A stretch of DNA of 64,000 bases from Deltaproteobacteria bacterium (GTDB taxonomy: Bacteria > Myxococcota > UBA727 > VGSZ01). A program made the position numbers and the translations under genes. Below are positions 4,898 through 46,793 of the stretch, piece by piece. The notes beneath the pieces are model-generated. The model had not been told where the DNA came from. It made no database searches and saw only the letters and a program-made list of their open reading frames with translations. Position 1 is the stretch's first letter, and each line of letters begins with the position of its first letter. The stretch is from contig JACOUT010000005.1 of assembly GCA_016177705.1 (NCBI GenBank), forward strand, positions 30,374-94,373. The letters are read 5' to 3'.

Positions 4898-5605
4898 TCA
4901 CTGCGGCGCGGCGCAGGCGACGTTGGAGGAGTGCCCGCCGCGATCTTCGGTCCACACCGCCAGCTCGCGATCGACGCGGTCGACGCAGCCGAGCACGACG
5001 ACGGTGCCGGCAGCGGCGTCGCCCGACTGCGACAGCACAGCGTCGATCTGAAAGACGTACGGGAAGCCGACGAAGGACTGGCTCTGCACGAACACCGCGG
5101 CGCCCGAGTCCGTCGCCAGTTGCCACATGTCAGCTTCTCGATCGAGGAACGAATAGCTCACCCGCACACCTTCGAGGTCGGGGTCGCACGGCGAGGTCGC
5201 GATCACTTCCACGTCGAAGATCGCCGGCCCTCCGGCCTGCCGCGGCTGCGCGTTCGAGCCCGCGGCGCAACTGGGCGCCGCGCCACCAACGCACTGGGCC
5301 GCGGCACAGGGAGCCACGTCGCAGCAGAGCCCCGGTGCGCACGACCCATCCGTCGTGCAGGTCGGGTCGCCTTCGCCTTCGCCCTCTCCTTCGCCCTCGC
5401 CCTCTCCTTCGCCTTCGCCTTCGCCGGGTGGCGTGTCTTCTGCGCAGACGCGGTCGACGCAGTACGGCAGCGACTCGGGGCAGTCATCGTCGTCGTCGCA
5501 GCGGACGCGCGCTCCGTCGCAGCCGTCGAGGGCCGCCACACACCCGAGCGCGAGCACGACCGCGGCCACCGGAGACGGCCAGCCTCGGCGCTGCGCGCGG
5601 GTCAT
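4898..5605 (-). CDS. secreted lipoprotein: signal peptide, Cys motif, (GE)n tract (copy 1 of the recurring module)
   Basis: 'VVLALGCVAALDGCDGARVRCDDDDDCPESLPYCVDRVCAEDTPPGEGEGEGEGEGEGEGEGD', then a ~130 aa Cys-containing domain. Overlaps the upstream gene by 4 nt. Confidence 0.7.
   Translation of the reverse strand: MTRAQRRGWPSPVAAVVLALGCVAALDGCDGARVRCDDDDDCPESLPYCVDRVCAEDTPPGEGEGEGEGEGEGEGEGEGDPTCTTDGSCAPGLCCDVAPCAAAQCVGGAAPSCAAGSNAQPRQAGGPAIFDVEVIATSPCDPDLEGVRVSYSFLDREADMWQLATDSGAAVFVQSQSFVGFPYVFQIDAVLSQSGDAAAGTVVVLGCVDRVDRELAVWTEDRGGHSSNVACAAPQ
5368..5426. repeat. GGYGAR hexanucleotide microsatellite encoding (Gly-Glu)n
   Basis: 'gccttcgccttcgccctctccttcgccctcgcc...' read on the + strand; in-frame within 4898..5605. 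Confidence 0.85.
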
Positions 5606-19936: not shown

Positions 19937-20962
19937 CTACTGCGGCGCGGCGACGAGCGCGCGCACCGCGTCCCGCAAGGTCTCGAGCGCTGCGTAGTCG
20001 GCGCCCGAGGTGTCTCCTTCGACGCGCGCGACGCAGCGTGGTTTGCCCTTCATGACCTCGAGGCAGGTCTCGCTTGCCGGTGAGCCCTTCCTGCGAGGCA
20101 CCGCCGGGCGCGACGCCTTGGTCCGCTGGAACGCCTTGAGCAGGCCCTCAACCTCGGCGGGGTTCGTCAGCACGCCCGCGGCCTTTCGTTGTGGTGTGGT
20201 CTGCTCGACGCGCGTGCCGACGACGTTGAACGCCTCGATGGCGGCAGCGCCGGCGCCGGCGCTGCGCGTCGTCAGCGTGAAGCACAGCGCGGGCGCGTCC
20301 TTCTTGCTCAGCTCGATGGCGAGTGACCAGGCGTCGACGTTGGCCGCGGCACGCGCGATCAGGCGCTGCAGCGCCGGGGCATCCGCGCTCAGCACGGTCT
20401 CCTTCAGCGACTGCCGCTCGCCATCTCGTGCGTCGCCGTAGCCGCGCACCAGCTCGACCACGGGCAGGCTGCCCGGGTCGCGCGCGATCTCGGCGTCGAG
20501 GAAGTCGGCGTCCAGGTATTCGAGCGCGACGCCGTCGGCGGGCGTGCGCACCACCCTGAGGTAGAGATGCTGGGGCAGGCTCATGCCCTTGGCGAGCTTG
20601 CCGGTTTTGCTCAAGTCCTCCGCGACCAGATCGGCGTAGCGCTTGCCCTCGACGTCGAACAGGAACAGGCGCAGCCGCACGTCCTTCAGCTCGGAGGTCG
20701 GGCTCTCGTCGCCGATCACCAACAGGTAGGACGGGCCGTCGGTGGTGTCCTCGCGCTTGATGGTCGAGGTCGGGAAGGTGCCGGGCCGCTTCTTCGACGG
20801 CTCAGCCGACACCGTCACCCAGCTTCCGACCAGGGAGTCGTCGGCGACGACGGTGCCCGGCATGAACGCTGAGTGAAGCCCGGCGGCCGGGCCACAGCGC
20901 TCACCTTGCAGGAGCAGGGCGGCAGGGAGGAAGGCGAGCGGGAACAGGCGAGAGCGGCGCAT
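19937..20962 (-). CDS. secreted hypothetical protein
   Basis: Signal peptide 'MRRSRLFPLAFLPAALLLQGERC'; 341 aa, balanced composition. Confidence 0.55.
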   Translation of the reverse strand: MRRSRLFPLAFLPAALLLQGERCGPAAGLHSAFMPGTVVADDSLVGSWVTVSAEPSKKRPGTFPTSTIKREDTTDGPSYLLVIGDESPTSELKDVRLRLFLFDVEGKRYADLVAEDLSKTGKLAKGMSLPQHLYLRVVRTPADGVALEYLDADFLDAEIARDPGSLPVVELVRGYGDARDGERQSLKETVLSADAPALQRLIARAAANVDAWSLAIELSKKDAPALCFTLTTRSAGAGAAAIEAFNVVGTRVEQTTPQRKAAGVLTNPAEVEGLLKAFQRTKASRPAVPRRKGSPASETCLEVMKGKPRCVARVEGDTSGADYAALETLRDAVRALVAAPQ

Positions 20963-21036: not shown

Positions 21037-22578
21037 TCACGGCGGCGTTGCGCCAAACTCGAACGCGCCGGCGTCACATGCGCCGTCAGTGCGCAAGAAG
21101 CCGCGCTGGTCTGCAGGCGGGCAGGTGACGGACGCGGCGGCGCCTCTGGCGGGGCTGGTAGCGGCGATTGACAGCGTCGGGGTCAGGCCGCCCTGGTTCG
21201 CGACATTGGCCGCGAGCTGGGGATCGGCGAAGACGTCGCCGTAGATGATGCTGAGGCCGCAATCTGTGTCGACGGTGGGCGAGACGTTGCCGCCGAGTGA
21301 GAGGAACTGCCCGTCGTTGGCGAAACAGGTGCCGGCCGACGGGTCGTCGATGATGGAGCCGAGCAGCACGACTGAGCCGGGCGGCCCCTCTTGATCGTCG
21401 AGCCGCGCCATCGCGCCGGTGTTGCCGCGGAACGTGGTGTGCACCAGCTCGATGGTCTCGTCGCCGCAGATGAAGATGACCTCCTGGCCGGCGTTGGCGA
21501 AGAAGGTGCTGTTCTCGAAGCGCACCGTGCCCTCGGTGGCGCAATTGACGTCGATGGCGCCGCCGCGGTTGTCGCTGATGTTGCCGATGAACAGCGAGCG
21601 GCGGATCACGACGTTGGCGCCGGGCACCGCCAGGTAGAGTGCGCCGCCGACGTCGCCGGCGCGGTTGCGATCGAGGACGCAGTCCTCGAGCAGCATGGTG
21701 GCGTTGTCGTGCACGCCGATGGCGCCACCGCGGGAGTAGCCCGGCGGCGTCTCGAGCCGGTTCATCACGAACGACGCGTGGTGCCCCTCCAAACGGGCAT
21801 TGCCGAACAGCGCGATGGCACCGCCTTGGTAGTAGACGGTGTCGACCGAGGTGCTGACGTTCTGCCGAACGTCCACGTCCTCGAGCAGCAGGGTCGCGCT
21901 CGTGGTGACCACCGCGGCGGCGGCGTGGGTGGTGGAGACGCCGCCCGCCAGCATCATGGTGCGCAGCCGCAGGCGCACCGTGCCGCTCAGGACGAACAAC
22001 CGGTTCGTGCCGCCGCCCTGCAGCGCGACGCCGTTGCCCTCGATGGTCAGGTCGCCGACGTCGAGGTTGAGGCTCGAGCCGATGCCGATGGTGCTGAGCG
22101 CGGCCTCGATGCAGATGGTGGTCGGCAGCGGCCCGAGCTGGTTCGCCTCGTCGAGCGCCGCTCGCAAGGTACAGCCACCGCTTGGCGCCAGGCACGTGCC
22201 GTCTGGGGCAGCGTCCCCGTCGTCGAGCTCGGAGGTGACCTTGAACGCGCCGACGCAGGCCGGCTCCCCCTCACCTTCGCCTTCGCCCTCACCCTCACCT
22301 TCGCCTTCGCCCTCACCCTCTCCTTCGCCCTCACCCTCGCCTTCGCCCTCACCCTCGCCTTCGCCCTCTCCTTCACCCTCGCCTTCGCCCTCTCCTTCAC
22401 CCTCGCCCTCCCCCTCGCCCTCGCCCTCGGCCGAGCGGCACGCGCCCTCGACACACCGTTGCCCGGCTTCACAGTTCGCATCGCCCTGGCACGGCAGCGG
22501 CGCCAGACCAAAGGACAGGCAACCCGCGACCAGCGCGGCGAGGAGCGCCAGCGCCAGCACCCATCGGCGCCCGCTCAC
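21037..22578 (-). CDS. lipoprotein: Cys motif, ~35x(GE), then right-handed parallel beta-helix domain (copy 3 of the module)
   Basis: GTG start at 22578 overlaps the upstream TGA (GTGA): 'VSGRRWVLALALLAALVAGCLSFGLAPLPCQGDANCEAGQRCVEGACRSAEGEGEG...'. C-terminal beta-helix repeats ('NRLFVLSGTVRLRLRTMMLAGG', 'GGAIALFGNARLEGHHASFVMN', 'GGALYLAVPGANVVIRRSLFIGN', 'GGAIDVNCATEGTVRFENSTFFAN'). The upstream ~380 codons of ORF 21037..23730 are poly-Arg junk. Confidence 0.75.
   Translation of the reverse strand: MSGRRWVLALALLAALVAGCLSFGLAPLPCQGDANCEAGQRCVEGACRSAEGEGEGEGEGEGEGEGEGEGEGEGEGEGEGEGEGEGEGEGEGEGEGEGEGEGEGEPACVGAFKVTSELDDGDAAPDGTCLAPSGGCTLRAALDEANQLGPLPTTICIEAALSTIGIGSSLNLDVGDLTIEGNGVALQGGGTNRLFVLSGTVRLRLRTMMLAGGVSTTHAAAAVVTTSATLLLEDVDVRQNVSTSVDTVYYQGGAIALFGNARLEGHHASFVMNRLETPPGYSRGGAIGVHDNATMLLEDCVLDRNRAGDVGGALYLAVPGANVVIRRSLFIGNISDNRGGAIDVNCATEGTVRFENSTFFANAGQEVIFICGDETIELVHTTFRGNTGAMARLDDQEGPPGSVVLLGSIIDDPSAGTCFANDGQFLSLGGNVSPTVDTDCGLSIIYGDVFADPQLAANVANQGGLTPTLSIAATSPARGAAASVTCPPADQRGFLRTDGACDAGAFEFGATPP
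22268..22428. repeat. GGYGAR microsatellite (~27 units) encoding (GE)n
   Basis: 'ccctcaccttcgccttcgccctcaccctc...' in-frame within 21037..22578. Confidence 0.85.
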
Positions 22579-23246
22579 GGCTCGCCTCCGGCGGCGACGC
22601 CGACGATGACACCGCCGGCGATGGCGAGCAGCACCCCCGCGCCGGCGCCGACGGCGCTCACCTGCCCGACGGCGCGCAGCGCGCCGCGCTCGGCGCCCGG
22701 TCGCGTCGGATCGGCGAGCGCGCTCTCGGCGTAGGCGAGCCCGCCCGCGCCGCCGACGAGCACCACCGCGCCCGCCCCCGCCACCACCGCGCCCGCCACC
22801 ACCGCAGTCGACGGCCCGTCCTGCTGCGCAGGCGGGACCGGCGCCGGCAGCGCCTCCGGGCGCGGCAGAGCAGGGGCTTGCGCGGCGCGCTCCGCCTCCA
22901 CCTCCTGCCGCACGCTCGCGAAGAACAGCGCCACCTTGGGCGGCGCGTCGGCGTCGAGCGTGGTCTCGGGCGCGCGCAGCAGCACGTAGCGGAAGTTGAT
23001 GCGAGCCTCCAGGTCGCGCCCGAGGATGCGGTGCGCGATGCCGGCGAGCAGGTTGGCGCGCAGCTTCTCGTCGTCGCTGGCCTCGGGAGCGGTGGCCGCG
23101 CGCATCAGCTCGTCCGCCGCGATCTCGTAGTCGAGCGCCGCCATCGCCGCTTCGCCTCGGGCGAGGTGTTGGGCGGGGGTGACGGGCGCGGCGACGGCGA
23201 CGAGCGCGGCGAGCAGCAGCACGGTGGCAGCATACCGTGCGCGCAT
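22575..23246 (-). CDS. module partner (copy 3): signal peptide, TPR-like helical domain, Pro/Ala linker, double Gly/Ala-zipper tail
   Basis: ATG at 23246: 'MRARYAATVLLLAALVAVAAPVTPAQ'. Tail 'VVAGAVVAGAGAVVLVGGAGGLAYAE...VSAVGAGAGVLLAIAGGVIVGVAAGGEP'. Confidence 0.6.
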   Translation of the reverse strand: MRARYAATVLLLAALVAVAAPVTPAQHLARGEAAMAALDYEIAADELMRAATAPEASDDEKLRANLLAGIAHRILGRDLEARINFRYVLLRAPETTLDADAPPKVALFFASVRQEVEAERAAQAPALPRPEALPAPVPPAQQDGPSTAVVAGAVVAGAGAVVLVGGAGGLAYAESALADPTRPGAERGALRAVGQVSAVGAGAGVLLAIAGGVIVGVAAGGEP

Positions 23247-23362
23247 GATCCGGGCGGGGTTGTCGCAGGCGGTGCAGGTGCGCATCCTGGCTCGATGTCC
23301 TTGCGCGAAGACGTGGCGCTGCCGGAGCCGGTGCGGGACGCCCTCGACCGTGCGAGGATGCC

Positions 23363-24790
23363 GTGGTGAGCGCCGCGCGCACCGCCACCGAGACGCGCAC
23401 CTCGACGCGTCCGTCGACCGGCACCTCCACCGGCACTGAGGCGCGTCGCGCGCCCGACATCGTCGCGGGCGTGGTCGACGCCGACAAGCTGGCCGACGAG
23501 ATCGCGGCTACCTCGGTCGACCCGCGCCTGTGGACCGGCGCCTTCGCCACCAACGTCTGGGGCGGCCGCTTCGCCGTCGACGGCGTGCTCGGCGAGGGCG
23601 CGCAGGGCACCACCTTCCAAGGCACCGACCTCAAGACCGGTGGCCGCGTCGCCATCAAGGTCTTCGACGTTGGCCGCGCCAAGGACTGGAAAGCGGTGCA
23701 GCTCTTCGACCGCGAGGCCGAGACGCTCAAGAGCGTCGATCACCCGGGCATCCCCAAGCTGCTCGACGTCATCGTCGACGAGGAGACCGGCGCGCGCGCG
23801 CTGGTGCGCACGCTGGTGCCGGGCGAGAGCCTGGCCGCCGAGATCAAGAGCAAGGGGCCGCTCGCCGAGGCGGCGTTGTGGAGCGTGATCATCGACGTCA
23901 CCGACGTGCTCGGCGCGCTGCACGGCCGCTCCTCGCCCATCGTGCACCGGGACATCAAGCCGGCGAACCTGATCCGCCGGCCCGACGGCAAGGTGTGTCT
24001 GGTCGACTTCGGCGGCGTCGGCAGGATGCGCGAGGCGGCCGGCTCCACGGTGGTCGGCACCTTCGGCTACATGGCGCCCGAGCAGCTCTATGGCGCGCAG
24101 ACGCCGGCCACGGACATGTACGCGTTCGGCGCCACGCTGCTGATGCTCGCAACCGGCCGAGAGCCCGAGGAGCTGCCAAGGAGCGGCCTGTCGCTCGACG
24201 TCGACCAGGCGGCGCCCAAGCTGTCGCCCCAGTTGCGCGCGCTCGTGAAGAAGCTGACCGCGCCCGACCCGAGCGGCCGTCCGGCCGACGCCAAGGCGCT
24301 GCTCGCGGAGCTGCACGCCATCGCTGACGCCAAGGACCGTCCGGCCGTCGAGCCGAGCTGGCCGGAGCCGATGGTCGACAGCCCGTTCGCCGCGCGCGGC
24401 GTCGAGGGCGACTTCCTGGTGGGAATCGTCGGCCTGGTGTTCGGCGTGCTCGGCGTGGTCGGTGCCGTCATCGTCGGGCAGCTGCTCATCCCGCTCGTGC
24501 TCACCATCATCGCCGCCACCGCCGACGGCGCGCAGAAGGAGCGCATCCTGGCGGCGCGCGCGCGCGTCGTCGAGGCGGCGACGTTGGCGCAGCGCTCCTT
24601 CGAGCGCTCGGCGCAGCACGGCGCCAAGAAGCTCGAGAGCGCCTCCGAGCGCGAGCGCGAGCGCGCCGAGGATCGCCGCCGTCGCCGGCGTGAGCTCAAG
24701 CGCCACTGGAAGGAAGAGGAGCGACGCCTCAAGCAGCTCGCCAAGGACGCCAAGCGCTCGGCACGGCGCGACGGTAGGTTCTGGGTGTAG
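23363..24790 (+). CDS. Hanks-type Ser/Thr protein kinase with C-terminal TM helix and coiled coil
   Basis: 'VAIKVF', '[10 protein letters not shown]', 'DFG', 'GTFGYMAPE'; TM '[34 protein letters not shown]'. Confidence 0.85.
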
Positions 24791-24859
24791 CCCTTTCTGG
24801 TCTGAGCACGCCCGCGCCGGGGCTTGTGCGCCCAGCGCGCGTGGGGCAAGAGGAACGCG

Positions 24860-25591
24860 ATGAAGTGGTCGACGATCGCCGCGCTGATGTTCAAGCACCG
24901 CGTGGCCTTCCTGCTCGTGTGGGTGGTGTGTTGGGTCGGCTGCGATCAGGCGAGCAAGATCTGGGCGCAGGGCGCGCTCGCGGAGCAGCGCGAGGTGGTC
25001 AGGCCCAAGGAAGTGGTGGCGCCTGACGGCACCAGCACGCGCACCGAGGAGCGCGTCACCCAGTTCTTCGCCAAGCGCACCATCACGCTGCACGAAAACG
25101 GCCTGTTCGGCCTCGGCTTCAAGTACGCCGAGAACCGCGCCGCTGCCTTCTCGCTCACCGAGTCGATCCCCGAGGGCGCGCGCCGGCCGCTGTTGTTGCT
25201 CGTCAGCGTCGCGGCGTGTGCGCTGATCGCCGTGTGGTACCTGCGCCTCAAGGTGGTCGACGGGCTTCTGATGCTCTCGTTCGCGCTCATCATCGGCGGC
25301 GCGCTCGGCAACTTCTTCGACCGGCTGCGGCTCAGCTACGTCATCGACTTCCTCGACATGTACCTGACCGGGCCGGGCGCGGTCGCCTGGCTGCGCGCGC
25401 CGCACTCGCTGTTCGGCATCGGCTTCCGCCTGTCCGACCACTGGCCGACGTACAACGTCGCCGACGTCGGCATCGTGTCGGGCGCCATCGGGGTCTTGCT
25501 GCGCACCTTCAAGCCGCTGCCGGGCACCTCGACCGACAGCGCCGTCGAGCCGAGCCCGCCGGCGCCCGCACCCGCCAAAGAGGCCGCCTGA
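24860..25591 (+). CDS. lspA: lipoprotein signal peptidase (signal peptidase II)
   Basis: 'GGALGNFFDRLRLSYVIDFL', 'WPTYNVADVGI' LspA motifs; 4 TM segments. Confidence 0.85.
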   Translation: MKWSTIAALMFKHRVAFLLVWVVCWVGCDQASKIWAQGALAEQREVVRPKEVVAPDGTSTRTEERVTQFFAKRTITLHENGLFGLGFKYAENRAAAFSLTESIPEGARRPLLLLVSVAACALIAVWYLRLKVVDGLLMLSFALIIGGALGNFFDRLRLSYVIDFLDMYLTGPGAVAWLRAPHSLFGIGFRLSDHWPTYNVADVGIVSGAIGVLLRTFKPLPGTSTDSAVEPSPPAPAPAKEAA

Positions 25592-25875
25592 TGTACCTGG
25601 CGCGCGTCATCGGCACCGTGGTCGCCACCAAGAAGGCCGACCACATGACCGGCCTCAAGCTGTTGGTGGTCGAGCCCGTCGACCGGGCCAACAAGCCGAA
25701 CGGCGAGATTCATGTCGCGGTCGACGTGGCGCAGGCCGGCGAGGGTGACCTGGTCACCTGCGTCGGCTCGCGCGAGGCGGCGCTGGCCATCGAGCCCTCC
25801 TTCGTGCCGGTCGACGCCGCCATCGTCGGCATCGTCGACCAGACCGACTGGGTGGCCGACCGGGTGCGCGCATGA
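25591..25875 (+). CDS. bacterial microcompartment vertex protein BMC-P (EutN/CcmL/PduN family, PF03319)
   Basis: 94 aa 'MYLARVIGTVVATKK...LKLLVVEPV...VAVDVAQAGEGDLV'; SD 'aagagg'; start overlaps the lspA stop (TGATG). Confidence 0.85.
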   Translation: MYLARVIGTVVATKKADHMTGLKLLVVEPVDRANKPNGEIHVAVDVAQAGEGDLVTCVGSREAALAIEPSFVPVDAAIVGIVDQTDWVADRVRA

Positions 25876-26231
25876 TCCTGTGCGACGTGGTCGGCACGGT
25901 GGTGATGACCGTGAAGCACCCGGCGCTCGCCGGCGAGAAGGTGCTGTGCTGTCAGCCGCTCGACGACGCCAAGGAGCCGGCCGGCGCCGTCATCCTGGCC
26001 GTCGATCGCGCGCAGGCCGGCGTGGGCGACCGCGTGCTGGTGATGCGCGAGGGCAACGGCGTGCGCCAGATCATCGGCCGCGAGCAGGGCAAGCCGCTCG
26101 ACGAGGCCGTCAAGATGGATTGGCCGGTGCGCTCGATGGTGGTGGGTGTGGTCGACCGTGTCGATGTCGCGCCGCGCGGTGCTTCGGTCGGCGGTGCTTC
26201 GCTCGGTAGGGCGCGCGACGCCAAGGCGTGA
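25872..26231 (+). CDS. second BMC-P (EutN/CcmL family) paralog with ~25 aa C-terminal extension
   Basis: '[16 protein letters not shown]...KVLCCQPLD...[17 protein letters not shown]'; ATGA overlap with the preceding gene. Confidence 0.8.

Positions 26232-32788: not shown

Positions 32789-32798
<10 letters not shown>
31935..32798 (+). CDS. polysaccharide deacetylase (NodB homology domain, CE4)
   Basis: GTG overlapping the dgkA TGA; 'RATLFIVTED', 'HEIASHSHRHR' (H-S-x-x-H zinc motif), 'RGFRAPGY'. Confidence 0.8.
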
Positions 32799-35017
<2,219 letters not shown>

Positions 35018-45432: not shown

Positions 45433-46287
45433 ATGTCGACGCCGCGAAACACCATGGTCTCCCCCCGCCCCCATCGCGCGGTGGTCGCCGCGTTGCTCTG
45501 CTCGGTGCTCGGCTGCGCGCGCGCGGCCGACGCTGCCGAGCTGTCGCCATCGACGTTCGCGACGTTGACCAGCGTCATCACCGTCGCGCTCGGCCGCCAC
45601 GAGAATCTCGACGTGCTCTCCTCGTCCGATGTGCGGCGCGCCGTCGAGCTCGAGGGCGACAAGCGCGCGCTCGGCTGCGCGGAGCAGACCTCGTGCCTGG
45701 CCGAAGTCGCGGGCGCCATGGGCGCTCGGCTGGTGGTGTTCGGTCAGCTCGGCGACCTCGACGGCGAGCTGGTGCTGACGCTCAACCTCTATGACTCGCA
45801 GTCGGCGAGCGCGGTCGGCCGAGCGCTCGAGCGCGCCCCCGACTCGCGGCGCTTGGCGGCACAGCTCGAAGGAGCCGTCGACCGGCTACTCGCGCGCACG
45901 CTCTCCTCGCTCAAGGCGGGCGAGCGCCTGCGCATCCTGGTGCTCGACCTCGAGCCAGGCGCGCCGACAGCAGCGCCTGGGCCTGCCGAGGCGGCGGCCG
46001 CGACCACCTCGTCCGACGAGCCAACTCCCTGGCTGCTTTATGGCGCGGGCGCCACCGCGGGCGTCGCGGCGCTGGCGGTCGGCGTTGGTGCCGTGCTCGG
46101 CGGACTCAACGTCGCGGAGCTCGATGCCGGCGCCAAGGAGCCGCTCGCGAAGAAGGCGCTGGAGCACGATCAGGCGGCGCAGGTGCTCGGCCTCGGCGCC
46201 AACGCCTCCTTCCTCACGTCTGCGGCCGCGCTGGTGGTCGCCGCCAGTCTCGGCGCTGCGCACCTCGTCGTCGGAGGGCCGGAATGA
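45433..46287 (+). CDS. module partner (copy 2), paralog of 5602..6381
   Basis: ATG near 45433: 'MSTPRNTMVSPRPHRAVVAALLCSVLGCARAADA'. Conserved 'LGCAEQTSCLAEVAGAMGARLVVFGQLGDLDGELVLTLNLYD'. C-terminal zipper 'GAGATAGVAALAVGVGAVLGG...SAAALVVAASLGAAHLVVGGPE'. Confidence 0.65.
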   Translation: MSTPRNTMVSPRPHRAVVAALLCSVLGCARAADAAELSPSTFATLTSVITVALGRHENLDVLSSSDVRRAVELEGDKRALGCAEQTSCLAEVAGAMGARLVVFGQLGDLDGELVLTLNLYDSQSASAVGRALERAPDSRRLAAQLEGAVDRLLARTLSSLKAGERLRILVLDLEPGAPTAAPGPAEAAAATTSSDEPTPWLLYGAGATAGVAALAVGVGAVLGGLNVAELDAGAKEPLAKKALEHDQAAQVLGLGANASFLTSAAALVVAASLGAAHLVVGGPE

Positions 46288-46793
46288 GAATCGTGGCGCT
46301 GCTGGCGTCGATGATCGCGCTCGGCTCGTGCTTCGGCCGCGTCGACCTCGAGGGCAAGCAATGCGGGGCCGACGAGGACTGCGGCGACGGCTACGTGTGC
46401 CGCGACGAAGTCTGTCGCGCGACCGGTGAGGGTGAAGGCGAGGGTGAAGGCGAGGGTGAAGGCGAGGGTGAAGGCGAGGGTGAAGGCGAGGGTGAAGGCG
46501 AGGGTGAAGGCGAGGGTGAAGGCGAGGGTGAGGGCGAGGGTGAGGGCGAGGGTGAAGGTGAAGGTGAGGGCGAAGGCGAGGGTGAGGGTGAAGGCGAGGG
46601 TGAGGGTGAAGGCGAGGGTGAGGGCGAGGGCGAAGGTGAACCGCCCGCCACCGTGCTGCTGGCCGGCATCGAGTCCGGCGGCGGCATGGTCCAAACCGCG
46701 GGGGGCGAGCTGCGGCTCTTCGCGGGCGGCCTGGAGATGCCCACCAGGGCGTGCAGCGGTGTTGTGTGTTTGCTCGGAGGGATCGCGCCATGA
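46284..46793 (+). CDS. lipoprotein: signal/lipobox, Cys motif, ~36x(GE), short tail (copy 2 of the module)
   Basis: ATGA overlap with the partner; 'MRIVALLASMIALGSCFGRVDLEGKQCGADEDCGDGYVCRDEVCRATGEGEGE...'. Confidence 0.7.
   Translation: MRIVALLASMIALGSCFGRVDLEGKQCGADEDCGDGYVCRDEVCRATGEGEGEGEGEGEGEGEGEGEGEGEGEGEGEGEGEGEGEGEGEGEGEGEGEGEGEGEGEGEGEGEGEGEGEGEPPATVLLAGIESGGGMVQTAGGELRLFAGGLEMPTRACSGVVCLLGGIAP
46424..46640. repeat. GE-coding microsatellite containing a perfect 12-bp unit 'ggcgagggtgaa' x~9
   Basis: 'gaaggcgagggtgaaggcgagggtgaa...' read directly. Confidence 0.9.

What the first reader, a model, noticed from the sequence alone, without database searches (positions are those of the whole stretch)
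21037..23246. Module copy 3: GTGA-coupled TPR/zipper partner and a GE lipoprotein carrying a parallel beta-helix domain
The junction is the same as in the other copies: the stop of 22575..23246 overlaps the GTG start of the lipoprotein. The lipoprotein has the same 'PCQGDANCEAGQRCVEGAC' + (GE)~35 head. Here the cargo is a ~380-aa right-handed beta-helix (pectate-lyase/NosD-like repeats) ending in a 'CPPADQRGFLRTDGACDAGAFEF' tail. That would make it a GE-stalked carbohydrate-active or adhesin-type surface enzyme. ORF 21037..23730 as listed is a ~900-aa frame whose first ~380 codons are poly-Arg and antisense to 22575..23246, so it should not be annotated as one protein.
Basis: partly seen in the sequence, partly recalled or inferred. 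Interest (0 to 1): 0.75.

Follow-up and report, generated by a model that had tools for sequence, protein, structure and literature searches.

The report
Coupled TPR anchor and GE-stalk lipoprotein
Two overlapping genes of an uncultured myxobacterium-like bacterium encode a small membrane-anchored helical-repeat protein and a lipid-anchored protein whose cysteine knot and long acidic Gly-Glu stalk carry a beta-helix binding domain; the pair recurs in related bacteria with different end domains, so it looks like an undescribed cassette for mounting proteins on the cell envelope.

Summary
On the minus strand, the partner gene (22575..23246) ends in a GTGA overlap with the GTG start (22578) of a 513-aa lipoprotein (21037..22578). 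A GGAGG sits 6 nt upstream of that start. The lipoprotein has a signal peptide with lipobox LVAGC, a 10-residue tether, a 4-Cys knot (PCQGDANCEAGQRCVEGAC) and E(GE)27, which is 27 repeats rather than about 35. A CSLREA-like cap, a confidently predicted right-handed beta-helix with four Pmp-type GGA[IL]/FxxN repeats, and a tail follow. The tail is the known choice-of-anchor Q domain. The 897-codon ORF is a shadow frame, but it lies on the same strand as the partner, not antisense to it. The partner has a signal peptide, a TPR-like domain, a Pro-rich linker and a Gly/Ala-rich two-helix membrane hairpin. It belongs to a sizeable family with no name. In at least nine loci it overlaps a downstream gene by 4 nt. 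Head identity tracks partner identity, while the cargo is swapped (beta-helix, LamG, FG-GAP, lyase-like). Best reading: an envelope display cassette in which the partner docks the lipoprotein head. The anatomy is solid. Localisation, partner-head binding and cargo activity are inferred. The cargo is a known kind; the cassette has not been described.

The parts
22575..23246 (-). Partner gene, 223 aa as read here. Alternative starts are ATG 23285 (236 aa) and GTG 23222 (215 aa, the NCBI call, MBI1946010.1 / HYS27_09955).
   Evidence: ORF list. GC3 is 0.86-0.98 in this frame. A 100% identical public protein exists. The family profile matches only this ORF in the window.
23181..23246 (-). Partner residues 1-22: Arg-containing n-region plus a hydrophobic helix. 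Read as a Sec signal peptide or N-terminal anchor.
   Evidence: Kyte-Doolittle peak 2.12 at residues 10-20. AF2 helix 2-18. Cleavage was not tested.
22878..23180 (-). Partner residues 23-123: TPR-like five-helix domain carrying most of the family-invariant residues (Y40, R73, G76, D78, R82, F85, R86, P103-K104-V105, F108, R113-Q114-E115).
22809..22877 (-). Partner residues 124-146: Pro/Ala-rich flexible linker.
   Evidence: Sequence. pLDDT 59-77 with no secondary structure. Variable in length and sequence across the family.
22578..22808 (-). Partner residues 147-223: Gly/Ala-rich two-helix hydrophobic hairpin with the conserved turn AE[ST]xLADPxRPGxER. It ends in GGEP, whose codons contain the Shine-Dalgarno sequence of the next gene.
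   Evidence: AF2 helices 147-177 and 184-220. Kyte-Doolittle peaks 2.21 and 2.23. All three K/R residues of this region (two in the turn proper, 172-195) lie between the two hydrophobic cores and none lie on the outer sides. GxxxGxxxG at 212-220.
22575..22589 (-). Coupling junction: GGAGG (22589..22585), 6-nt spacer, GTG start (22578..22576) overlapping the partner's TGA stop (22577..22575).
   Evidence: Sequence. The same GTGA or ATGA overlap, with GGAGG/GGAGA upstream, is present in L004, L008 and L011; the window's copy 4 has ATGA with GGAGGG upstream; L001 has the ATGA overlap without a GGAG motif.
21037..22578 (-). GE-stalk lipoprotein gene, 513 aa plus stop.
   Evidence: ORF and frame analysis. 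Orthologues with the same start context in L004, L008 and L011. The exact product is absent from public protein collections.
22522..22578 (-). Lipoprotein residues 1-19: signal peptide (n-region RR, h-region LALALLAAL) leading into the lipobox L-V-A-G-C20.
   Evidence: Sequence. AF2 helix 5-18. Lipobox pattern from established knowledge (PROSITE PS51257-type rule).
22438..22521 (-). Head, residues 20-47: lipid-Cys20, tether LSFGLAPLP, then the 4-Cys knot C30-x5-C36-x5-C42-x4-C47.
   Evidence: The four Cys are invariant in 8 aligned heads. The tether motif [FL][GA]Lx[PK]L[PA]C is conserved in all six loci with a TPR-type partner. Sub-threshold hits to DUF7107 and Dickkopf_N on this head, and to Myxo_Cys_RPT and the EB module on sister heads.
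22264..22428 (-). Polyanionic stalk E(GE)27, residues 51-105, with 28 Glu.
   Evidence: Regex and TRF, 27.7 copies of a 6-nt period at 78% match. AF2 pLDDT 35-43, i.e. disordered. Enriched in rare synonymous codons: GAA 36% against 6% in the rest of the gene.
22141..22263 (-). Residues 106-146: Cys-containing N-terminal cap with the CSLREA-like motif GGCTLRAALDEAN.
   Evidence: TIGR04214 CSLREA_Nterm 17.7 bits, below the cut-off of 25. AF2 helix 138-147. The motif is conserved in homologues P0004, P0011 and L004.
21259..22131 (-). Residues about 150-440: right-handed parallel beta-helix with four GGA[IL] and four FxxN (Pmp-type) motifs.
21055..21225 (-). Residues 452-508: choice-of-anchor Q domain, containing CPPADQRGFLRTDGACDAGAFEF.
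   Evidence: NCBIfam NF041518 53.3 bits against a cut-off of 25. The same domain scores 57-76 bits in homologues.

Best explanation
This is a two-gene, translationally coupled envelope cassette.

Gene 1 encodes a Sec-exported protein. Its TPR-like domain sits in the periplasm on a Pro-rich leash, held in a membrane by a C-terminal Gly/Ala-rich helical hairpin. Counting K/R residues puts the turn in the cytoplasm, which makes this most simply an inner-membrane protein with both ends outside.

Gene 2 starts inside the last codons of gene 1 and encodes a lipoprotein. From the lipidated Cys20 it runs as follows: a 10-residue tether, a membrane-proximal mini-domain of four cysteines (probably two disulfides), a 55-residue disordered polyanionic (GE)27 spacer, and a Pmp/RbtA-like beta-helix capped by a choice-of-anchor Q domain.

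Shown:
- The gene models, the 4-nt overlap and the Shine-Dalgarno sequence.
- The domain anatomy and the beta-helix and TPR-like folds.
- Conservation of the partner plus head across loci, while the domain after the GE tract is exchanged.

Inferred:
- The lipoprotein is processed by Lgt, LspA and Lnt and sorted by Lol.
- The GE tract acts as a charged spacer that holds the cargo some 10-20 nm from the membrane.
- The partner's TPR domain binds the conserved tether and knot, in 1:1 stoichiometry ensured by the coupling, to dock, retain or hand over the lipoprotein.
- The cargo is a binding or adhesin-type module working at or beyond the outer face of the envelope.
For: Gene models:
- GTGA overlap and GGAGG.
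- The GC3 frame switch.
- Lipobox.

Conservation of the pair:
- A 4-nt overlap of a partner homologue with a downstream gene is seen in nine loci. These are the window, L004/L008, L001, L011, L013, L015/L016, and the contigs of P0024 and P0200.
- Where the downstream sequence could be read, it is a lipobox protein. Of these, L001, L004/L008, L005, L011 and L013 carry the same tether, 4-Cys knot and GE tract. L002 and L015/L016 have Cys-containing heads without a GE tract.
- Head identity tracks TPR-domain identity: 75/78, 64/69, 68/59, 50/54 and 50/51 %.
- The cargo is replaced by Laminin_G_3 (E 5.8e-26), FG-GAP (6.4e-08) or a weak Polysacc_lyase-like domain.
- GE length varies among orthologues with the same cargo: 14, 27 and 31 repeats.

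Partner:
- The family is real and large: 275 cluster representatives at E<=1e-10, mostly 200-260 aa matched over the full length.

Cargo:
- Beta-helix, Pmp repeat above threshold, choice-of-anchor Q above threshold.
- One of the closest structures, RbtA, is described as a cell-surface protein of A. baumannii (PMC12643943).

General principle:
- Disordered N-terminal linkers are common in outer-membrane lipoproteins and are needed for Lol sorting (El Rayes et al., bioRxiv 10.1101/2021.01.05.425367).
Against: - There is no direct evidence of a partner-head contact.
- Localisation is unknown for both proteins. The hairpin turn has as many acidic as basic residues, so the topology call is weak.
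- A 4-nt overlap is the commonest gene junction in bacteria, so taken alone it shows only an operon.
- One GE lipoprotein in the window (32789..35017) has no such partner.
- L002 has a small Cys-rich lipoprotein without GE between the partner and the GE lipoprotein.
- The PEGA-containing relative P0099 is not coupled to a downstream gene.
- The other two partner types in the window are not detectably homologous to this one.
- The fold does not separate adhesin from enzyme.
- AF2 gave low confidence for the head and the tail.
- The GE copy number comes from a short-read MAG.
Confidence: 0.55

Rival explanations
1. The cargo is a carbohydrate-active enzyme (a polysaccharide lyase, glycosidase or epimerase) held on the GE stalk. 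The cassette would then be a tethered exopolysaccharide- or matrix-processing enzyme rather than a binding module.
Confidence: 0.3
2. The lipoprotein does not reach the cell surface. It is an inner- or outer-membrane lipoprotein facing the periplasm, and the GE tract works as a periplasm-spanning ruler, as in LpoB. This places the cargo at the peptidoglycan or the opposite membrane. The inner-membrane TPR partner retains or positions it.
For: The K/R distribution puts the partner in the inner membrane with its TPR domain in the periplasm. The 55-110-residue spacers match periplasmic dimensions. TPR periplasmic organisers such as YbgF/CpoB, LpoP, BamD and YfgM are among the structural neighbours. 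No surface-export machinery is encoded next to the pair.
Against: Choice-of-anchor Q, Pmp-type beta-helices, LamG and FG-GAP modules are typically extracellular or surface domains. This rests on the NCBIfam naming and on established knowledge. RbtA is described as a cell-surface protein.
Confidence: 0.2
3. The partner and the lipoprotein are merely operon neighbours with independent functions. The conserved adjacency would reflect shared ancestry of closely related genomes.
For: 4-nt overlaps are generic. Most sampled loci come from one uncultured lineage. One GE lipoprotein in the window lacks a partner, and some partner relatives lack the coupled gene.
Against: The coupling persists down to 51% TPR identity, and also in a member found only at profile E 7e-16. 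It persists while the cargo is exchanged and the head co-diverges with the partner. Two non-homologous partner types in the same window show the same hairpin-then-overlap arrangement with GE lipoproteins.
Confidence: 0.12
4. Artefact: the 897-codon ORF is the real gene, or the GE tract or junction is an assembly error.
For: The ORF is open for 897 codons. Short-read contigs often break at GE tracts.
Against: The long-ORF frame has GC3 of only 0.44-0.64 across the partner region. Its 5' part is the mirror of the kinase gene. The partner is conserved as a protein in many samples. The same junction occurs in independent assemblies.
Confidence: 0.03

Closest known systems
Choice-of-anchor Q domain proteins (NCBIfam NF041518) with a CSLREA-type cap and Pmp-type beta-helix, including rhombotarget A (RbtA, PDB 9CDV) of Acinetobacter baumannii
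   Different: There is no sequence-level match to RbtA: the TIGR04212 RbtA model was not among the hits at E<=1 for this protein, and the profile search against PDB sequences missed it. Anchoring here is N-terminal (lipid, knot and GE stalk) rather than through a C-terminal sorting signal such as GlyGly-CTERM, PEP-CTERM or LPXTG. CSLREA_Nterm scores below its cut-off.
Chlamydial polymorphic membrane proteins (Pmp) and other autotransporter beta-helix adhesins (pertactin, Vag8)
   Different: There is no autotransporter beta-barrel. The protein ends 5 residues after the choice-of-anchor Q domain. It is attached by an N-terminal lipid rather than a C-terminal translocator.
Outer-membrane lipoproteins with long disordered N-terminal linkers (RcsF, LpoB, NlpD, Pal)
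   Same: A lipid anchor followed by a long disordered segment that spaces a folded domain away from the membrane. Such linkers are common and matter for Lol sorting.
   Different: Here a folded 4-Cys knot lies between the lipid and the linker. The linker is a pure alternating polyanion (GE)n of 14-36 units. The lipoprotein gene is coupled to a dedicated membrane partner gene.
Procyclin (EP/GPEET) of Trypanosoma brucei and the TonB (EP)n(KP)n spacer. These are functional analogies recalled from established knowledge.
   Same: Acidic dipeptide repeats form an extended spacer next to a membrane anchor. The low-complexity Pfam hit to Trypan_PARP reflects this.
   Different: There is no homology, and the hit is compositional (19.3 bits against a cut-off of 100). 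The residue chemistry differs (Gly instead of Pro, so more flexible), as do the anchor type and the organism.
Periplasmic or membrane-tethered TPR organisers (YbgF/CpoB, LpoP, PilF/PilW, BamD, YfgM; the TssQ family)
   Different: No family model reaches threshold: TPR_2 13.5 against 27 and TssQ 14 against 65. The C-terminal two-helix Gly/Ala hairpin and the obligate coupling to a knot/GE lipoprotein are not features of those families.

Membership tests
Choice-of-anchor Q domain-containing protein (NCBIfam NF041518) | The domain model scores above its curated cut-off of 25 bits. | tested here: met
   53.3 bits, E 2.4e-14, residues 452-508 matching profile positions 1-57 of 58. The L004 orthologue scores 60.9 bits.
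Bacterial lipoprotein (Lgt/LspA substrate) | A signal peptide with a basic n-region, a hydrophobic h-region and a lipobox [LVI][ASTVI][GAS]C within the first ~35 residues. | tested here: met
   The sequence is MSGRRWVLALALLAALVAG-C20. The pattern was checked by eye against the PROSITE-type rule, and no dedicated predictor was available. Lipidation itself is not testable here.
Right-handed parallel beta-helix (Pfam PF13229, pectin-lyase fold) | The Pfam model scores above its gathering score, or the fold is demonstrated. | tested here: met
Chlamydia-type polymorphic membrane protein (Pmp) autotransporter | Pmp repeats (GGA[ILV], FxxN). | tested here: met
   PF02415 28.9 bits against 20.6. TIGR01376 16.1 bits against 15. 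Four GGA[IL] and four FxxN motifs.
Chlamydia-type polymorphic membrane protein (Pmp) autotransporter | A C-terminal autotransporter beta-barrel. | tested here: not met
   No autotransporter domain was hit, and the protein ends at residue 513, right after the choice-of-anchor Q domain.
CSLREA domain-containing protein (TIGR04214) | The N-terminal domain model scores above its cut-off of 25 bits. | tested here: not met
   17.7 bits at residues 112-146. The motif CTLRAAL resembles CSLREA.
Rhombotarget A (TIGR04212, GlyGly-CTERM protein) | The equivalog model scores above its cut-off (295 bits), and a GlyGly-CTERM sorting signal is present. | tested here: not met
   The model was not among the NCBIfam hits at E<=1 for this protein. 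The distant homologue P0004 gives only 19.7 bits. There is no C-terminal transmembrane sorting signal. The similarity is in fold only.
Polysaccharide lyase or glycoside hydrolase beta-helix enzymes (PL1/PL6/PL9, GH28/GH87/GH110), NosD/CASH | A family model hit and the catalytic residues or Ca2+ site. | tested here: inconclusive
Tetratricopeptide repeat (Pfam TPR clan) | A TPR model scores above its gathering score. | tested here: not met
Glycine-zipper membrane hairpins (Pfam Gly-zipper_Omp / YMGG / Rick_17kDa_Anti; SlyB-like) | A family model hit and a conserved GxxxGxxxG. | tested here: not met
   No Pfam hit at E<=10 for any of the three hairpins. A strict GxxxGxxxG occurs once here, and in only 7 of the 16 aligned family members counting this one.
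TssQ family T6SS-associated lipoprotein (NF038027) | The model scores above its cut-off of 65 bits, and the protein is a lipoprotein. | tested here: not met
   14 bits, E 0.056. The best family member reaches E 5e-4. The partner has no lipobox Cys.
Myxococcales Cys-rich repeat (TIGR04201) / DUF7107 (PF23416) | The model scores above its cut-off (25 and 24.6 bits). | tested here: not met
   DUF7107 gives 12.8 bits on this head and 13.9-16.6 bits on sister heads. Myxo_Cys_RPT gives 13.4-16 bits, on sister heads only. The resemblance is consistent but below threshold.

The most novel reading that the evidence does not exclude
The TPR-hairpin protein and the lipid-tether-knot 'head' together form a previously undescribed, dedicated lipoprotein docking or surface-display system of Myxococcota-like bacteria. 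It would be an N-terminal counterpart of the C-terminal 'choice of anchor' sorting tags. The small membrane partner specifically recognises the head and determines where the lipoprotein ends up (retention, hand-over or surface exposure). The (GE)n polyanion sets the reach, and any extracellular module (beta-helix, LamG, FG-GAP, lyase-like) can be plugged in behind it.
Probability: 0.3. Interest if true: 0.75.

Novelty: new variant of a known kind. Interest (0 to 1): 0.55.

Why it matters
How Gram-negative bacteria other than a few model groups put lipoproteins at defined positions in the envelope or on the surface is largely unknown. The known cases are Slam in Neisseria, the export signal in Bacteroidota, and RcsF with BAM.

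This cassette offers a compact and testable candidate. It has one small partner gene, a 28-residue head, a tunable polyanionic spacer, and cargos that nature has already swapped. If the partner-head interaction is real, it defines a new sorting or docking tag. It would also explain a family of at least 275 unnamed protein clusters, and it would give a portable display scaffold.

There is also a practical annotation lesson. The lipoprotein is missing from the public protein set, probably because of the GE tract and the overlapping shadow ORF. Short-read assemblies also break at these tracts, so this class of proteins is systematically under-counted.

Tried and rejected
- Sequence similarity between the TPR-type partner and the two other partner types in the window was not found. 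BLASTP gave E 0.96. HMMs of the whole partner, of the TPR part and of the hairpin hit only the query ORF. 'Module copy' therefore means shared architecture, not demonstrable homology.
- Pfam and NCBIfam give nothing above threshold for the partner or for the isolated hairpins.
- A profile of the partner against PDB sequences found nothing.
- A profile of the cargo against PDB sequences found only repeat-level hits and did not find RbtA.
- The Foldseek afdb50 library was unavailable.
- Scans of genome and metagenome contigs with the partner profile returned only 3 loci each. The exhaustive HMMER search showed that the family is much larger.
- A head-profile search returned only fragmentary, unnamed proteins.
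- Literature searches for Gly-Glu or GE-repeat lipoproteins, GEGEGEGE, CSLREA and choice-of-anchor found no description of this cassette. 'GE repeats' in the literature refers to the G5-E repeats of SasG, which are unrelated.
- The promoter and terminator scan gave nothing informative.
- Reading the long ORF 21037..23730 as a gene was rejected on GC3 grounds.
Full report
**Source and setting**

The window has 67-75% G+C. The partner protein is 100% identical to MBI1946010.1 (HYS27_09955) from a MAG labelled 'Deltaproteobacteria bacterium', on a 362-kb contig. Related loci come from other uncultured 'Deltaproteobacteria' or Myxococcota MAGs and from metagenomes.

**Gene models**

The partner ORF lies on the minus strand and ends ...GGA GGC GAG CCG TGA. 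Its TGA (22577..22575) overlaps the GTG (22578..22576) that opens a 513-codon frame ending at 21037. A GGAGG (22589..22585) lies 6 nt upstream of the GTG, so the partner's C-terminal GGEP codons double as the ribosome-binding site.

Third-position G+C settles which frames are coding. Over 23350..22601 the partner frame has GC3 0.86-0.98 and the long-ORF frame has 0.44-0.64. From 22150 to 21101 the lipoprotein frame has GC3 0.86-1.00.

The 897-codon ORF 21037..23730 is therefore a composite shadow. Its last 513 codons are the real gene. Only the first ~120 codons (23363..23730) are antisense, and they mirror the + strand Ser/Thr kinase gene at 23363..24790.

The partner start is uncertain among three candidates:
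- ATG 23285, giving 236 aa. This start is supported by an in-frame 'DNPxRI' extension in homologues of about 65-72% identity.
- ATG 23246, giving 223 aa. This has the most canonical signal-peptide n-region.
- GTG 23222, giving 215 aa. This is the NCBI call, and it lacks any basic residue.

**Lipoprotein anatomy**

- Residues 1-19 are a signal peptide leading into the lipobox L-V-A-G-C20.
- Residues 20-47 form the head, CLSFGLAPLPCQGDANCEAGQRCVEGAC. It consists of the lipid Cys, a 10-residue tether, and four further Cys that are invariant in eight aligned heads.
- Residues 51-105 are E(GE)27, with 28 Glu and no basic residue. AF2 gives pLDDT 35-43 here, consistent with disorder.
- Residues 106-146 carry a CSLREA-like cap, GGCTLRAALDEAN. 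It scores 17.7 bits against TIGR04214, below the cut-off of 25.
- Residues 452-508, which hold the 'CPPADQRGFLRTDGACDAGAFEF' tail, are the known NCBIfam domain choice-of-anchor Q. It scores 53.3 bits against 25 and is found in all cargo homologues checked.

**What the cargo is**

By fold it is equally close to three kinds of protein:
- Enzymes: GH110, PL9, GH87, PL6 and RbmB.
- Adhesins or passenger domains: Vag8, pertactin, PfbA and SRRP.

RbtA is described as a cell-surface protein of unknown function (PMC12643943). A CSLREA-domain protein is listed among Acinetobacter T2SS substrates (PMC9245377).

No enzyme family reaches threshold by sequence. The Pmp-type repeats and the choice-of-anchor Q tail argue for a surface binding or adhesin module, but an enzyme cannot be excluded.

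**Partner anatomy**

AF2 gives mean pLDDT 87. The model has:
- An N-terminal hydrophobic helix, residues 2-18.
- Five helices (24-36, 40-52, 58-74, 78-91, 103-123) with pLDDT 96-98.
- A Pro-rich linker, residues 124-146.
- A hairpin of two long helices, 147-177 and 184-220.

No Pfam or NCBIfam model reaches threshold. TPR_2 scores 13.5 bits against 27, and TssQ_fam scores 14 against 65, with weak hits in 9 of 16 family members.

The hairpin helices are hydrophobic, with Kyte-Doolittle peaks of about 2.2, and are 48% Gly plus Ala. All three K/R residues of the region (two in the turn proper) lie between the two hydrophobic cores, so the simplest topology is an inner-membrane hairpin with both ends in the periplasm. 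This is an inference.

A strict glycine zipper, G212xxxG216xxxG220, is present but is not conserved in the family. The label 'zipper' is therefore loose.

**Is the pair a unit?**

An exhaustive profile search shows that the partner family is substantial. There are 275 cluster representatives at E<=1e-10 and 76 at E<=1e-30. Most are 200-260 aa long and match over the whole length. None has a name.

A 4-nt overlap between a partner homologue and the next gene occurs in nine loci: the window, L004/L008, L001, L011, L013, L015/L016, and the contigs of P0024 and P0200. L005 and L002 have other tight junctions.

Where DNA could be read, the downstream product is a lipobox protein. In L004, L011, L013, L005 and L001 it has the same tether motif ([FL][GA]Lx[PK]L[PA]C), the same 4-Cys knot and a GE tract.

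Head identity to the window copy tracks TPR-domain identity, as shown below.

| Locus | Head identity (%) | TPR-domain identity (%) |
|---|---|---|
| L004 | 75 | 78 |
| L011 | 64 | 69 |
| L013 | 68 | 59 |
| L005 | 50 | 54 |
| L001 | 50 | 51 |

The domain after the GE tract, in contrast, is exchanged between loci:
- Beta-helix plus choice-of-anchor Q in the window and L004; L011 (contig ends inside the beta-helix) has the same cap and helix.
- Laminin_G_3 in L001.
- FG-GAP in L013.
- A weak Polysacc_lyase-like domain in L005.

GE length varies among orthologues with the same cargo: 14, 27 and 31 units.

Two further GE lipoproteins in the window are likewise overlapped (ATGA) by upstream genes ending in a two-helix hydrophobic hairpin. 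These are 4898..5605 and 46284..46793. Their partners have a different N-domain and show no detectable homology to this partner. A fourth GE lipoprotein, 32789..35017, has no such partner.

**Mechanism proposed**

What is shown is the coupled expression, a membrane-proximal conserved head, a disordered polyanionic spacer and a modular cargo.

What is inferred is the following. The TPR domain is leashed to the membrane by a 23-residue linker. It binds the tether and knot of the nascent or mature lipoprotein, and docks, retains or hands it over. The GE tract then projects the cargo away from the membrane.

Disordered N-terminal linkers are a known and functionally important feature of outer-membrane lipoproteins. 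The interposed knot, the pure (GE)n chemistry and the dedicated partner are not described in the family libraries or in the literature I could search.

**Caveats**

- No interaction or localisation data exist.
- The lineage is uncultured.
- GE copy numbers from short-read MAGs are provisional, because contigs frequently end at these tracts.
- AF2 was uninformative for the head and the tail.

**Verdict**

The cargo is a new member of a known kind. The partner-head-stalk cassette is an undescribed variant of lipoprotein anchoring that deserves experimental follow-up. Interest is 0.55.

Noticed in passing
window 21037..22578 (-): The lipoprotein seems to be absent from public protein sets. A search with its 409-aa cargo found nothing above 52% identity, and the exact 513-aa product is not in the 15-billion-protein collection. 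The adjacent partner, in contrast, is present as NCBI MBI1946010.1. The gene is probably uncalled or flagged as a pseudogene in the deposited annotation.
   Followed up: partly
window 22264..22428; also 33002..33201, 46428..46640 and the tracts in L004, L005, L011, L013: GE tracts are written with unusual synonymous codons for this high-GC genome. In this tract GAA makes up 36% of Glu codons, against 6% in the rest of the gene, and GGC makes up 52% of Gly codons, against 80%. The same GAA trend appears in 8 of the 9 tracts examined (the GGC drop in 5). The DNA repeat is therefore imperfect (78% match) while the peptide repeat is perfect.
   Followed up: partly
L010 (end), L008, L015/L016; proteins P0031-P0045: Short-read contigs very often terminate at or inside GE tracts. 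Most database members of this lipoprotein class are therefore head-only fragments, and their copy numbers are unreliable.
   Followed up: no
protein P0027 (ENA, 195 aa): This protein is a chimera. It has the partner's N-terminal TPR domain and first hairpin helix fused directly to 'DDGACDAGAFEFGAAQ', the end of a choice-of-anchor Q tail. It is either an assembly collapse or a deletion spanning the lipoprotein gene.
   Followed up: no
window 19937..20962 (-): A 341-aa ORF lies 74 bp downstream of the lipoprotein on the same strand. It has a hydrophobic N-terminus and no Pfam or NCBIfam hit. It is absent from the otherwise syntenic locus L004, where the YeeE/YedE-like genes follow directly.
   Followed up: partly
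window 23363..26231 (+): Divergent from the partner are a Ser/Thr kinase with a C-terminal membrane segment, then lspA (lipoprotein signal peptidase II, 24824..25591), then two EutN/CcmL-like genes. The same order is seen in L010, whose called genes hit the Pfam families Pkinase, Peptidase_A8 and EutN_CcmL x2, followed by Aldolase_II. L005 also has a kinase next to its cassette.
   Followed up: no
L013 2..2705: This is a tandem arrangement. The C-terminus of an FG-GAP-like protein overlaps the partner start by 4 nt. The partner in turn overlaps by 4 nt a knot/GE lipoprotein with FG-GAP cargo. This suggests arrays of cassettes.
   Followed up: partly
L002 6001..10124 (and L003): This is a variant cassette. 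The partner, which has a Cys-containing hairpin, is followed (TGATG junction) by a 125-aa Cys-rich lipoprotein without GE. A separate 992-aa lipoprotein follows, with a short GE tract directly after the lipobox, many thrombospondin-type-3-like Asp-rich repeats and a DxSxS (VWA-like) motif.
   Followed up: no
proteins P0099, P0139, P0146, P0198 (partner-family relatives): The partner family has larger variants. Some have a PEGA domain between the TPR-like domain and a Cys-rich membrane region. One has two TPR-like units. The P0099 locus is not coupled to a downstream lipoprotein.
   Followed up: partly
window 32789..35017 (+): The fourth GE lipoprotein of the window has 33 GE units and a cargo with an MXAN_6577-like Cys-rich region. 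It has no hairpin partner. The upstream ORF reads like a polysaccharide deacetylase, which is my reading of the sequence and was not tested.
   Followed up: no
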